From Alteromonadaceae bacterium (GTDB lineage: Bacteria > Pseudomonadota > Gammaproteobacteria > Enterobacterales > Alteromonadaceae): a DNA stretch of 64,000 bases. The notes under the pieces are model-generated. The model was not told where the DNA came from. It made no database searches and saw only the letters and a list, made by a program, of their open reading frames with translations. Location of the stretch: NCBI GenBank assembly GCA_965656875.1, contig CBFHMJ010000028.1:70292-134291 (forward strand), written 5' to 3'. Positions 30,943 to 31,014 of this stretch are shown here, in pieces; the stretch's first letter is position 1; each line of letters starts with the position of its first letter. Position numbers and translations under genes: made by a program.

Positions 30943-31014
30943 TTTTTTGTAGCTCATTCGGTAGAGCAATCGTAATAAAACGATGGGTAGCAGGTTCGAT
31001 TCCTGTCAAAAAAA
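30943..31014 (+). ncRNA. 72-nt tRNA-shaped element (Y-RNA/YrlA-like tRNA mimic), not a functional tRNA
   Basis: The sequence is TTTTTTG-TA-GCTC-ATTCGGTA-GAGC-A-ATCG-TAATAAAA-CGAT-GGGTAG-CAGG-TTCGATT-CCTG-T-CAAAAAA.
- The acceptor stem is 7 bp and entirely A:U with one G:C.
- The D-arm is canonical (GCTC/GAGC, 8-nt loop).
- The T-arm is perfect (CAGG/CCTG, TTCGATT loop).
- The anticodon arm is degenerate: a 4-bp stem and an 8-nt loop, with no plausible anticodon context.
- There is no 3' CCA. Confidence 0.5.

What the first reader, a model, noticed from the sequence alone, without database searches (positions are those of the whole stretch)
30943..31014. Operon-encoded tRNA mimic (Y-RNA-like) in the leader of an RtcR/sigma54-controlled rtc operon that lacks a Ro60 gene
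Between the sigma54-type promoter and the first ORF there is a 72-nt sequence that folds into a near-perfect tRNA cloverleaf.

- **What the sequence shows:** a 7-bp acceptor stem made almost entirely of U:A pairs (TTTTTTG / CAAAAAA), a canonical D-arm, and a perfect T-arm with a TTCGATT loop. The anticodon arm is degenerate (4-bp stem, 8-nt loop) and there is no CCA. This is the signature of a tRNA mimic rather than a tRNA gene.
- **Established knowledge:** in Salmonella, the RtcR-regulated rsr-yrlBA-rtcBA operon encodes Y RNAs whose effector module mimics tRNA. RtcR's CARF-like domain is reported to respond to tRNA-derived fragments.
- **What is unusual here:** no Ro60/Rsr (TROVE) gene is present. 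An SPFH protein occupies that position instead.
- **Inference:** the mimic may act with the SPFH protein, or as a ligand, decoy or feedback element for RtcR or RtcB, rather than as a Ro-bound Y RNA.
Basis: partly seen in the sequence, partly recalled or inferred. Interest (0 to 1): 0.85.

Follow-up and report, generated by a model that had tools for sequence, protein, structure and literature searches.

The report
Band-7-associated tRNA-like RNA in rtc operon
The 72-base cloverleaf is real and conserved, but it belongs to an already predicted class, the "Band-7-associated tRNA" that sits in front of a soluble SPFH protein in RtcB RNA-repair operons; what may be new is that it lies between two other conserved RNA structures.

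Summary
Window 30943-31014 (+) is the only tRNA-like sequence in the 64 kb. It scores 51 bits against Rfam tRNA, and its lowest-energy fold is a cloverleaf. It lies between a sigma54-type promoter and an SPFH-rtcB-rtcA operon, divergent from rtcR. It is not a decoding tRNA: the anticodon loop has 6 nt, the acceptor stem is almost all A:U, and no CCA is encoded.

It is not a one-off. In 72 of 80 loci from other species, a homologue lies just 5' of the homologous SPFH gene on the same strand. It stays there when the rtc genes are reordered or absent. The cloverleaf covaries strongly. The D/T "elbow" is nearly invariant, while the anticodon loop drifts in length and sequence.

This matches the "b7a-tRNA" predicted by Burroughs & Aravind (2016), which I know only through a citing preprint. 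"Y-RNA-like" holds only as a functional analogy.

Beyond the finding, two further covarying RNA modules flank the cloverleaf: a 5' three-way junction and a 3' rod hairpin. Neither matches any Rfam family. The SPFH protein has no predicted membrane helix and shows a suggestive resemblance to the major vault protein.

The mechanism is inferred, not shown: an RNA partner of the SPFH protein in RtcB-dependent repair.

The parts
29052..30692 (-). rtcR, the sigma54-dependent activator with CARF-like, AAA+ and HTH domains, transcribed divergently. The public gene call is 538 aa, so the true start is probably about 30668.
   Evidence: Pfam RtcR 1.5e-77 plus Sigma54_activat. NCBIfam RNA_repair_RtcR equivalog 769.5 bits against a cut-off of 650. 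Gene call in L081.
30848..30862 (+). Sigma54-type promoter TGGCACgtgggTTGT (-24/-12 boxes). The inferred transcription start is near 30874.
   Evidence: Sequence. The same TGGCAC-N5-TTGT/C box lies 94-105 nt upstream of the first tRNA-like copy in the window, L012, L013, L016 and L019. It is also visible in L001, L005, L006 and L025.
30876..30940 (+). 5' leader element, a three-way junction. P1 is GAAAC/GUUUC. P2 is the hairpin GGCAA/UUGCC. P3 is GGUGCGC...GCGUAUUCC (30903-30932) with a 2-nt bulge and a G.U pair.
   Evidence: The lowest-energy fold of the leader shows it. The motif GGUGCR-hairpin-YRUAUNCC occurs just 5' of the tRNA-like copies in 38 loci, including cyanobacteria. On alignment A6 (27 sequences), 87% of cells are paired against 30-43% when partners are slid; P3a is 100% paired. 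No Rfam match.
30943..31014 (+). The finding itself: a tRNA-like RNA of the b7a-tRNA class. All-A:U acceptor stem, canonical D and T arms, 5-bp anticodon stem with a 6-nt loop, no CCA.
   Evidence: ARAGORN. Rfam tRNA 51 bits. Cloverleaf as lowest-energy fold. Family model R1 76.5 bits. Family covariation: 93.8% of cells paired, 18 of 21 pairs with compensatory change.
31073..31154 (+). 3' rod, a long imperfect hairpin. Its apex at 31098-31127 carries the family motif GCAAGC-GGGAUAA-GCUCCC.
   Evidence: Fold. Alignment A3 of 15 leaders gives four helices and 29 pairs: 87.7% paired against at most 44% when slid, 26 of 29 pairs compensatory. Model R2, built without the window, finds 31098-31145 as the top hit in the window (22.2 bits, E about 0.005).
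31162..31167 (+). Shine-Dalgarno AAGGAG, 5 nt before the SPFH start codon.
   Evidence: Sequence.
31173..32828 (+). SPFH/Band-7 ('slipin family') protein, 551 aa. No predicted membrane helix. The N-terminal beta-rich module is duplicated relative to the usual 384-390 aa homologues.
   Evidence: Pfam Band_7 5.3e-34. More than 7800 homologues. Hydropathy maximum 1.18 over 19 residues. AlphaFold2 pLDDT 82.8. Matches to stomatin, HflK and prohibitin, and to the major vault protein.
32868..34154 (+). rtcB, the RNA 3'-phosphate/2',3'-cyclic phosphate ligase.
   Evidence: Pfam RtcB 8e-126.
34191..35366 (+). rtcA, the RNA 3'-terminal phosphate cyclase.
   Evidence: Pfam RTC 1.8e-72. NCBIfam RNA_3prim_cycl 295.6 bits against a cut-off of 250.

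Best explanation
**What it is.** The element is a member of the Band-7-associated tRNA-like RNA class (b7a-tRNA).

**How it is made.** It is transcribed from the RtcR/sigma54 promoter as part of a roughly 300-nt structured leader: a 5' three-way junction, the tRNA-like cloverleaf and a 3' rod hairpin. The leader runs directly into the SPFH-rtcB-rtcA message.

**What the sequence shows.** The cloverleaf keeps everything that makes a tRNA L-shape: U8, A14, G18 G19, the T-loop UUCGAUU, and the acceptor and T stems. It has given up decoding: 6-nt anticodon loop, A:U-only acceptor stem, no encoded CCA.

**Inferred steps, not shown.**
- It is cut out by the tRNA-processing machinery, for example RNase P at its 5' end, and accumulates as a stable tRNA-shaped RNA.
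- It binds the co-encoded soluble SPFH protein, which like other SPFH proteins probably forms a ring or cage.
- The two act as a scaffold or cofactor for RtcB/RtcA when RtcR senses damaged tRNA.
- This would be the role proposed for Ro60 and the tRNA-like Y RNA YrlA in the Salmonella rsr-yrlBA-rtcBA operon.

**Confidence split.** Identity as b7a-tRNA: about 0.9. Partnership with the SPFH protein rather than another role: about 0.5.
For: **Identity.** Rfam tRNA 51 bits, cloverleaf as the lowest-energy fold, family model 76.5 bits.

**Not decoding.**
- The window copy has a 6-nt loop.
- Among 74 homologues the anticodon arm is 14-18 nt long, and 21 are not the canonical 17 nt.
- Only 32 of 74 have a U33/R37 seven-nt loop, carrying 18 different 'anticodons'.
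- Mean acceptor-stem GC is 0.36, against 0.64 in 66 ordinary-looking array tRNAs from the same loci.
- CCA is encoded in 17 of 74, against 58 of 66.

**Selection on the body.**
- 93.8% of cloverleaf cells are paired, against at most 43% when partners are slid. 18 of 21 pairs show compensatory change. The D-arm and T-arm are at least 90% conserved.
- In *Pseudoalteromonas luteoviolacea* strains whose SPFH genes are only 73-75% identical at third codon positions, the acceptor stem and D-arm of the tRNA-like RNA are identical and the T-arm nearly so. The loop changes in length from 7 to 9 nt.

**Linkage to the SPFH gene.**
- 72 of 80 loci from Gamma- and Betaproteobacteria, Cyanobacteria and Myxococcota have at least one copy within about 1.2 kb upstream on the same strand.
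- It stays 5' of the SPFH gene in rtcR|RNA-SPFH-rtcB-rtcA, in rtcR|rtcB-rtcA-RNA-SPFH, and in loci with no rtc gene in the flanks.
- In L057 and L053 the neighbouring genes are unrelated.

**Co-transcription.** The sigma54 box is conserved upstream. No terminator-like site lies anywhere in 30400-31400.

**Literature.**
- The b7a-tRNA was described as encoded next to Band-7 and RtcB, and proposed to be functionally redundant with YrlA (10.1101/312249).
- RtcR's CARF domain binds tRNA 5' halves ending in a 2',3'-cyclic phosphate (PMC7790460).
Against: - No expression, processing or binding data exist for this RNA. The citing preprint states that b7a-tRNA had not been validated experimentally.
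- Linkage to the SPFH gene is equally compatible with a cis-acting role on the SPFH mRNA.
- Deleting the *P. aeruginosa* SPFH gene in the rtc locus (PaFlo8) gave no phenotype in standard assays (PMC13086221). Those assays did not test RNA damage.
- Some SPFH loci have no recognisable full cloverleaf: Providencia L051 and L056, L028, L070 and the E. coli slipin-RlaP locus. The cloverleaf is therefore not indispensable to every family member.
- I could not read the primary paper. What it claims is known to me only second-hand and from memory.
Confidence: 0.6

Rival explanations
1. Cis-acting leader. The cloverleaf and its flanking structures work on the SPFH-rtcB-rtcA transcript itself. RNase P/E cleavage at the tRNA-like 'punctuation' would set the 5' end, stability or translation of the SPFH message. 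Alternatively, the leader senses a cellular signal, and no free RNA or ribonucleoprotein is needed.
For: - The RNA always lies 5' of the SPFH ORF on the same strand, with no terminator-like site in 30400-31400.
- The whole interval from promoter to start codon is filled with conserved structure.
- In several group-A relatives a small hairpin sits just before the Shine-Dalgarno sequence (read from the sequences).
Against: - One to three tandem copies per locus, and full conservation of the tRNA tertiary-interaction nucleotides, are more than a cleavage site needs.
- The distance to the start codon varies from about 160 to more than 700 nt.
- The analogous operon in Salmonella encodes trans-acting Y RNAs (PMC7790460, PMC4201824).
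Confidence: 0.2
2. Decoy or sentinel for tRNA-cleaving toxins. The tRNA-shaped RNA competes with real tRNAs for anticodon nucleases. Alternatively, it is cleaved itself and yields cyclic-phosphate fragments that bind RtcR's CARF domain, giving positive feedback.
For: - RtcR binds tRNA 5' halves ending in a 2',3'-cyclic phosphate, and Hughes et al. raise a competitive-inhibitor role for YrlA's tRNA-like domain (PMC7790460).
- Some homologues keep exact Met, Lys, Asn or Ile-type anticodon loops.
- In six related loci, arrays of apparently complete tRNAs lie between, or directly next to, the rtc and SPFH genes.
Against: - The anticodon loop is the least constrained part. It varies in length from 4 to 9 nt, and among close strains it drifts at roughly the synonymous rate. 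A specific decoy should conserve its bait.
- The window copy's 6-nt AAUAAA loop resembles no tRNA loop.
- This idea does not explain the strict linkage to the SPFH gene where no rtcR or rtcB is nearby.
Confidence: 0.12
3. An ordinary tRNA gene (ARAGORN: tRNA-Phe, anticodon AAA), or a decaying tRNA pseudogene or integration-site remnant that happens to lie here.
For: ARAGORN assigns an anticodon, and the Rfam tRNA score is above the gathering threshold.
Against: - The best structure has a 6-nt loop.
- Acceptor stem with 2 G/C bases out of 14, and no CCA.
- 'Anticodons' at the same position in other species differ widely and include stop-type and 2-nt or 4-nt calls.
- A decaying relic would not keep 93.8% pairing with compensatory changes, nor a fixed position next to the SPFH gene across phyla.
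Confidence: 0.04

Closest known systems
b7a-tRNA (band 7-associated tRNA), predicted by Burroughs & Aravind, Nucleic Acids Res 2016;44:8525, as cited in bioRxiv 10.1101/312249
   Same: A predicted non-coding RNA that strongly resembles a tRNA, encoded next to a Band-7/SPFH protein and RtcB. All three features are present here. The association recurs in 72 of 80 related loci.
   Different: I found nothing that separates the window copy from the class, so it is an ordinary member. Two things may go beyond the published description, which I could not read. One is the pair of flanking conserved modules, the 5' three-way junction and the 3' rod. The other is the quantitative picture of a constrained body with an unconstrained anticodon loop.
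YrlA, the tRNA-like Y RNA (Rfam RF02553) of the Salmonella rsr-yrlBA-rtcBA operon, bound by Ro60/Rsr
   Same: An RtcR/sigma54-controlled rtc operon that encodes a tRNA-shaped non-coding RNA next to a candidate scaffold protein. T-arm and D-arm mimicry. A proposed cofactor role for RtcB (PMC4201824; 10.1101/312249).
   Different: - No Ro60/TROVE gene here.
- No YrlA match in 30600-31300 even at E <= 10.
- In YrlA the tRNA-like domain opens into a long Ro-binding stem and its 'acceptor' is closed by a loop. Here the cloverleaf has normal topology with free 5' and 3' acceptor ends.
- Only sub-threshold YrlA hits (33 bits against a gathering score of 69) appear in a relative, L013. By their coordinates they lie across the junctions of tandem copies.
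Canonical elongator tRNAs of the Met/Ile/Lys/Thr/Asn type
   Same: The D-arm GUAGCUCA..GGUAGAGC, the T-arm GGUUCGAnUCC and the 5-nt variable loop. Several homologues still carry a CUCAUAA (Met-type) loop and an encoded CCA, for example L031, L049 and L050. The class therefore probably derives from such a tRNA; that is an inference.
   Different: Non-canonical anticodon loop length, no conserved anticodon, an AU-rich acceptor stem, CCA usually absent, and a position inside an mRNA leader.
Vault particle: major vault protein with an SPFH-like shoulder domain, plus vault RNA and the TROVE protein TEP1
   Different: The similarity is of architecture only: TM-score about 0.3 and 11-14% identity. 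No assembly is known for the bacterial protein. Vault RNAs are not tRNA-like cloverleaves. This is a lead, not a membership.

Membership tests
b7a-tRNA (Band-7-associated tRNA-like RNA) | Sequence folds as a tRNA-like cloverleaf | tested here: met
   Rfam tRNA 51 bits. Cloverleaf as the lowest-energy fold. Family model R1 76.5 bits.
b7a-tRNA (Band-7-associated tRNA-like RNA) | Encoded immediately next to a Band-7/SPFH protein gene, same strand | tested here: met
   158 nt upstream of the Band_7 ORF at 31173-32828. The same arrangement occurs in 72 of 80 related loci.
b7a-tRNA (Band-7-associated tRNA-like RNA) | Association with an RtcB RNA-repair operon | tested here: met
   rtcB and rtcA follow the SPFH gene, and rtcR is divergent.
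b7a-tRNA (Band-7-associated tRNA-like RNA) | Exists as a discrete expressed RNA | not testable with these tools
   No transcript data. The citing preprint says the class had not been validated experimentally.
Decoding tRNA (Rfam RF00005 as a functional tRNA) | Seven-nt anticodon loop with U33 and a purine at position 37 | tested here: not met
   5-bp stem with the 6-nt loop AAUAAA, both in the covariance-model alignment and in the lowest-energy fold.
Decoding tRNA (Rfam RF00005 as a functional tRNA) | Anticodon identity conserved among orthologues | tested here: not met
   18 different 'anticodons' among the 32 homologues with a canonical loop. 21 of 74 have a non-canonical arm length.
Decoding tRNA (Rfam RF00005 as a functional tRNA) | Aminoacylation and use in translation | not testable with these tools
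   No CCA is encoded and the acceptor stem is UUUUUUG/CAAAAAA. Post-transcriptional CCA addition cannot be excluded.
Y RNA / YrlA (RF02553) | Match to the YrlA or Y_RNA covariance model | tested here: not met
   No such match in 30600-31300 at E <= 10, and none at gathering score in the whole window.
Y RNA / YrlA (RF02553) | Co-encoded Ro60/Rsr (TROVE) protein | tested here: not met
   The operon ORFs are Band_7, RtcB and RTC. No TROVE domain among the other window ORFs of at least 400 aa that I scanned; the three ORFs of 2102-5801 aa were scanned only in part.
Y RNA / YrlA (RF02553) | Long stem formed by the 5' and 3' ends (the Ro-binding module) that encloses the effector domain | tested here: not met
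   The cloverleaf is closed by its own 7-bp acceptor stem. The neighbouring rod hairpin is a separate, serial element.
RtcR/sigma54-controlled rtc operon | RtcR activator, a -24/-12 promoter, and RtcB and RtcA genes | tested here: met
   NCBIfam RtcR equivalog 769.5 bits. TGGCAC-N5-TTGT at 30848-30862, conserved in relatives. Pfam RtcB and RTC.

The most novel reading that the evidence does not exclude
The functional unit is not the cloverleaf alone. It is a composite structured RNA of about 280 nt: a 5' three-way junction with the near-invariant GGUGCR/YGUAUNCC helix, one to three tRNA-shaped domains, and a 3' rod or further T-arm modules. This RNA would assemble with a soluble, vault-like SPFH cage into a bacterial ribonucleoprotein for RNA repair or quality control. 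The particle would be conserved from Cyanobacteria to Gammaproteobacteria and would still be unrepresented in Rfam.
Probability: 0.2. Interest if true: 0.8.

Novelty: new member of a known kind. Interest (0 to 1): 0.4.

Why it matters
Bacterial Rtc RNA-repair operons are induced by damaged tRNAs, yet the role of their accessory parts remains open. Those parts are Ro60 with Y RNAs in some species, and an SPFH protein with a tRNA-like RNA in others.

The b7a-tRNA class is very widespread. The SPFH protein alone has thousands of homologues, and a related gene occurs in a quarter of complete E. coli genomes. I found no experimental work on it in the paper library I could search.

This work adds three testable points:
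- Selection acts on the tRNA body and not on the anticodon loop.
- The RNA travels with the SPFH gene even without rtc genes.
- Two more conserved RNA modules flank it.

The next experiments follow directly: does the SPFH protein bind this RNA, and does the pair help RtcB? For this window specifically, the result is modest, because it is one more member of a predicted class.

Tried and rejected
- **Primary paper.** I tried to read Burroughs & Aravind 2016 by DOI and by PMC id. It is not held. The class definition rests on the citing preprint and on my memory of the abstract.
- **Source organism.** The SPFH protein is a singleton cluster without a name, and the contig is known only from an unnamed NCBI record and a Logan assembly. 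The nearest relatives are only 41-51% identical.
- **ARAGORN's 'tRNA-Phe (aaa)'.** Rejected, because it needs a weaker stem register and the anticodon is not conserved.
- **Y RNA membership.** Rejected.
- **A second tRNA-like copy in the window, as in many relatives.** None found. Model R1 gives a single hit in the window.
- **Folding energy of the leader.** Neither 31015-31172 nor the whole leader stands out from shuffles (z = -0.39 and +0.11). The evidence for the flanking modules is comparative, not thermodynamic.
- **Phages.** The collection has no homologue of the SPFH protein.
- **E. coli.** The slipin locus has only an orphan T-arm, and RefSeq annotates no tRNA there. It gave no independent annotation of the class.
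- **Diversifying selection on the anticodon loop.** Loop change among *P. luteoviolacea* strains is about what synonymous divergence predicts. I read it as relaxed constraint.
- **Similarity to the major vault protein.** Suggestive only. I did not isolate the N-terminal repeat for a separate fold search.
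Full report
**1. The observation**

The window holds exactly one tRNA-like sequence, at 30943-31014 on the + strand (ARAGORN). Rfam's tRNA model matches the same 72 bases end to end at 51 bits, against a gathering score of 29 (E = 5.5e-8 for the whole window). 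Folded alone, the lowest-energy structure is the cloverleaf: -16.9 kcal/mol, 46% of the ensemble, z = -2.57.

Read directly from the sequence:
- The acceptor stem is UUUUUUG/CAAAAAA.
- U8, A14, G18 G19 and the T-loop UUCGAUU are in place.
- The discriminator is A, and no CCA follows.

The anticodon arm is a perfect 5-bp stem with a 6-nt loop, AAUAAA. ARAGORN's label "tRNA-Phe (aaa)" needs a shifted stem which, paired by hand, contains two G.U pairs and one mismatch.

**2. The surroundings**

| Feature | Coordinates | Strand |
|---|---|---|
| rtcR | 29052-30692 | - |
| TGGCAC-N5-TTGT box | 30848-30862 | + |
| SPFH/Band-7 protein, 551 aa | 31173-32828 | + |
| rtcB | 32868-34154 | + |
| rtcA | 34191-35366 | + |

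No terminator-like site lies anywhere in 30400-31400. No TROVE/Ro60 domain appears in the operon, nor in the other large ORFs of the window that I scanned.

**3. Is it a one-off?**

The SPFH protein has thousands of homologues, named "slipin family protein". The nearest is only 41-51% identical. Using an alignment of these, I fetched 80 loci from one-genome-per-species contigs. They come from Gamma- and Betaproteobacteria, Cyanobacteria, Myxococcota and an acidobacterium.

ARAGORN finds one to three tRNA-like genes just upstream of the SPFH gene, on the same strand, in most loci. They are often in tandem and overlap by 1-3 nt. Their "anticodons" are wildly different, including stop-type calls and 2-nt or 4-nt calls.

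A covariance model built from 74 of them recovers further copies that ARAGORN missed, for example in all the *Pseudoalteromonas luteoviolacea*-group loci (L001-L007, L039). By my count, 72 of 80 loci have at least one copy within about 1.2 kb upstream of the SPFH gene on the same strand. Two of the eight exceptions simply have too little upstream sequence.

**4. What the RNA is linked to**

tblastn with the window's proteins shows three gene orders:
- rtcR | RNA-SPFH-rtcB-rtcA, as in the window.
- rtcR | rtcB-rtcA-RNA-SPFH.
- RNA-SPFH with no rtc gene in the 3.5-kb flanks.

In L057 (a cyanobacterium) and L053 the neighbouring genes are unrelated. In every arrangement the RNA stays immediately 5' of the SPFH gene. 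The RNA is therefore tied to the SPFH gene, not to the promoter and not to rtcB.

**5. What selection preserves**

On the 74-sequence alignment, 93.8% of cloverleaf cells form standard pairs, against at most 43% when partners are slid. 18 of 21 pairs show compensatory changes. One caveat: most of these sequences were picked by a tRNA finder, so the independent evidence is their fixed genomic position.

The D-arm UAGCUCA..GGUAGAGC and the T-arm GGUUCGAnUCC are at least 90% conserved.

| Property | tRNA-like RNAs (74) | Array tRNAs from the same loci (66) |
|---|---|---|
| Anticodon arm not the canonical 17 nt | 21 (range 14-18 nt) | not measured |
| U33/R37 seven-nt loop | 32, with 18 different anticodons | not measured |
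| Mean acceptor-stem GC | 0.36 | 0.64 |
| CCA encoded | 17 | 58 |

In *P. luteoviolacea* strains the SPFH genes are only 73-75% identical at third codon positions. Yet the acceptor stem and D-arm of the RNA are identical and the T-arm nearly so, while the loop varies from 7 to 9 nt.

The reading is that the L-shaped body is under strong constraint and the anticodon loop is close to neutral. This excludes a decoding tRNA and a decaying pseudogene. It also argues against a bait that must copy one particular anticodon loop.

**6. What is known**

A preprint on the structure of the tRNA-like Y RNA YrlA (bioRxiv 10.1101/312249) makes three statements:
- b7a-tRNA and YrlA appear functionally redundant.
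- The RNA had not been validated experimentally.

The primary paper is not in the library. From memory, its abstract proposes Ro/TROVE and SPFH/Band-7 modules as scaffolding cofactors with cognate non-coding RNAs, "YRNAs and a novel tRNA-like molecule". Further searches found no other paper on this RNA.

A 2026 study notes that the *P. aeruginosa* SPFH protein PaFlo8 is embedded in the rtc locus. Its deletion gave no phenotype in general assays (PMC13086221).

As membership, "Y-RNA-like" fails:
- No YrlA or Y_RNA match in 30600-31300, even at E <= 10.
- No Ro60 gene.
- No Ro-binding stem.
- Normal tRNA topology rather than YrlA's permuted one.

**7. Two more conserved RNA modules**

*The 5' three-way junction (window 30876-30940).* It lies between the promoter and the cloverleaf. 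Its core is the helix GGUGCR...YGUAUNCC, with a 2-nt bulge and a nearly invariant G.U pair. The motif occurs just 5' of the tRNA-like copies in 38 loci. These include six cyanobacteria and the Providencia loci, which lack a full cloverleaf. On 27 sequences, 87% of cells are paired against 30-43% when slid. The outer and side helices covary.

*The 3' rod (window 31073-31154).* It lies between the cloverleaf and the start codon, and its apex carries GCAAGC-NGGAN-GCUCCC.
- In 15 leaders with the window's gene order, RNAalifold predicts four helices and 29 pairs. 87.7% of cells are paired against at most 44% when slid, and 26 pairs show compensatory change.
- A model built without the window finds 31098-31145 as the best hit in the whole window (22.2 bits, E about 0.005 with rough calibration).

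Loci with the other gene order carry different 3' modules instead: extra hairpins, a second T-arm, and a region of about 250 nt closed by GAGGCYCA...UGRGCCUC. I did not analyse these formally. None of these modules matches an Rfam 15 family. I cannot tell whether the 2016 paper mentions them.

**8. The protein**

The SPFH protein has no predicted membrane helix: the maximum hydropathy is 1.18 over 19 residues. In the window, its N-terminal beta-rich module is duplicated.

- Foldseek: E 2e-12 to 7e-9, 638-661 alignment columns.

The TM-scores are low, about 0.3, so this is a resemblance of architecture and not a demonstrated relationship. Solved SPFH proteins form rings or cages (hit titles). 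That makes a cytoplasmic assembly plausible.

**9. Mechanism**

*Shown:*
- The sequence is a conserved tRNA-shaped RNA gene in the leader of an RtcR-type operon.
- It is genetically coupled to the SPFH gene.
- It is constrained in its body only.

*From the literature:* RtcR is activated by tRNA 5' halves ending in a cyclic phosphate (PMC7790460).

*Inferred:*
- The cloverleaf is excised by tRNA-processing enzymes.
- It binds the SPFH assembly.
- It helps RtcB/RtcA, much as proposed for Ro60-YrlA.

I put about 0.9 on the identity and about 0.5 on that mechanism. The main rival is a cis-acting leader (0.2). Then come a decoy or sentinel for tRNA-cleaving toxins (0.12), and a true tRNA or a relic (0.04).

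**10. Verdict**

The element is real, conserved and interesting as a class. This instance is an ordinary member of an already predicted kind. The added value lies in the comparative picture and in the two flanking RNA modules.

Noticed in passing
window 30876-30940 (+); for example L013 3022-3099, L057 2712-2800, L051 3176-3272: A conserved 5' three-way-junction RNA between the sigma54 promoter and the tRNA-like element. Its core helix is GGUGCR...YGUAUNCC, with a 2-nt bulge and a nearly invariant G.U pair. It is found in 38 loci, including cyanobacteria and Providencia, and has no Rfam match. On 27 sequences, 87% of cells are paired against 30-43% when slid.
   Followed up: partly
window 31073-31154 (+), apex 31098-31127; for example L013 3325-3490, L001 3330-3478: A conserved rod-like hairpin between the tRNA-like element and the SPFH start codon, with the apical motif GCAAGC-NGGAN-GCUCCC. 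29 pairs, 26 of them with compensatory change. It is restricted to loci with the window's gene order and has no Rfam match.
   Followed up: partly
L029, L031, L034, L035, L037, L041, L043: the 330-430 nt between the tRNA-like copy and the SPFH gene: In loci ordered rtcB-rtcA-RNA-SPFH, the cloverleaf is followed by an anticodon-arm-like hairpin, a second hairpin and an extra T-arm (GGGGUUCGAnUCCCC). After that comes a region of about 250 nt closed by GAGGCYCA...UGRGCCUC, with apparent covariation. Seen by eye only.
   Followed up: no
L050 5486-8101, L049 5088-7870, L035 1558-2287, L073 53-1288, L045 1329-2169, L031 1467-1810: Arrays of 4-15 ordinary-looking tRNA genes lie between, or directly next to, the rtc and SPFH genes in unrelated species. 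Mean acceptor GC is 0.64, and 58 of 66 encode CCA. They could be a spare tRNA set linked to an RNA-repair system.
   Followed up: partly
L082 (E. coli LR-28, NZ_AP027512.1) 3766-6218; L083: 1409 of 5426 complete E. coli genomes carry a slipin-family SPFH gene followed by an RlaP nucleotidyltransferase ('RNA repair pathway DNA polymerase beta family') next to rluF/yjbD. The unannotated 528-nt gap upstream has a TGGCAC...TCGC box and an orphan T-arm, CGGGUUCGAUUCCCG, but no full cloverleaf. RefSeq annotates no RNA there.
   Followed up: partly
window 31173-32828 (+): The SPFH protein has no predicted membrane helix. Its N-terminal module of about 160 aa is duplicated: SEVGL(V/L)YIDGRL..LIAPGESCLVW occurs twice. 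The model aligns over its full length to the major vault protein, as well as to stomatin and HflK/C.
   Followed up: partly
L013 3139-3200 and 3212-3268: Sub-threshold Rfam YrlA hits (33 bits against a gathering score of 69). By their coordinates they lie across the junctions between tandem tRNA-like copies, from the 3' part of one copy into the 5' part of the next. That order of arms is the permuted one I recall for YrlA's tRNA-like domain.
   Followed up: no
L001-L007, L039 (P. luteoviolacea group), about 3194-3285: The acceptor stem and D-arm of the tRNA-like RNA are identical across strains and the T-arm nearly so, although their SPFH genes differ at about 25% of synonymous third positions. 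The anticodon loop differs in sequence and in length, from 7 to 9 nt.
   Followed up: yes
window 7015-24420 (+), 37410-50306 (-), 56111-62419 (+): Very large ORFs of 5801, 4298 and 2102 aa flank the rtc locus. The last is a polyketide synthase. The N-terminal thirds of the other two gave no Pfam hit at E <= 1e-5.
   Followed up: no
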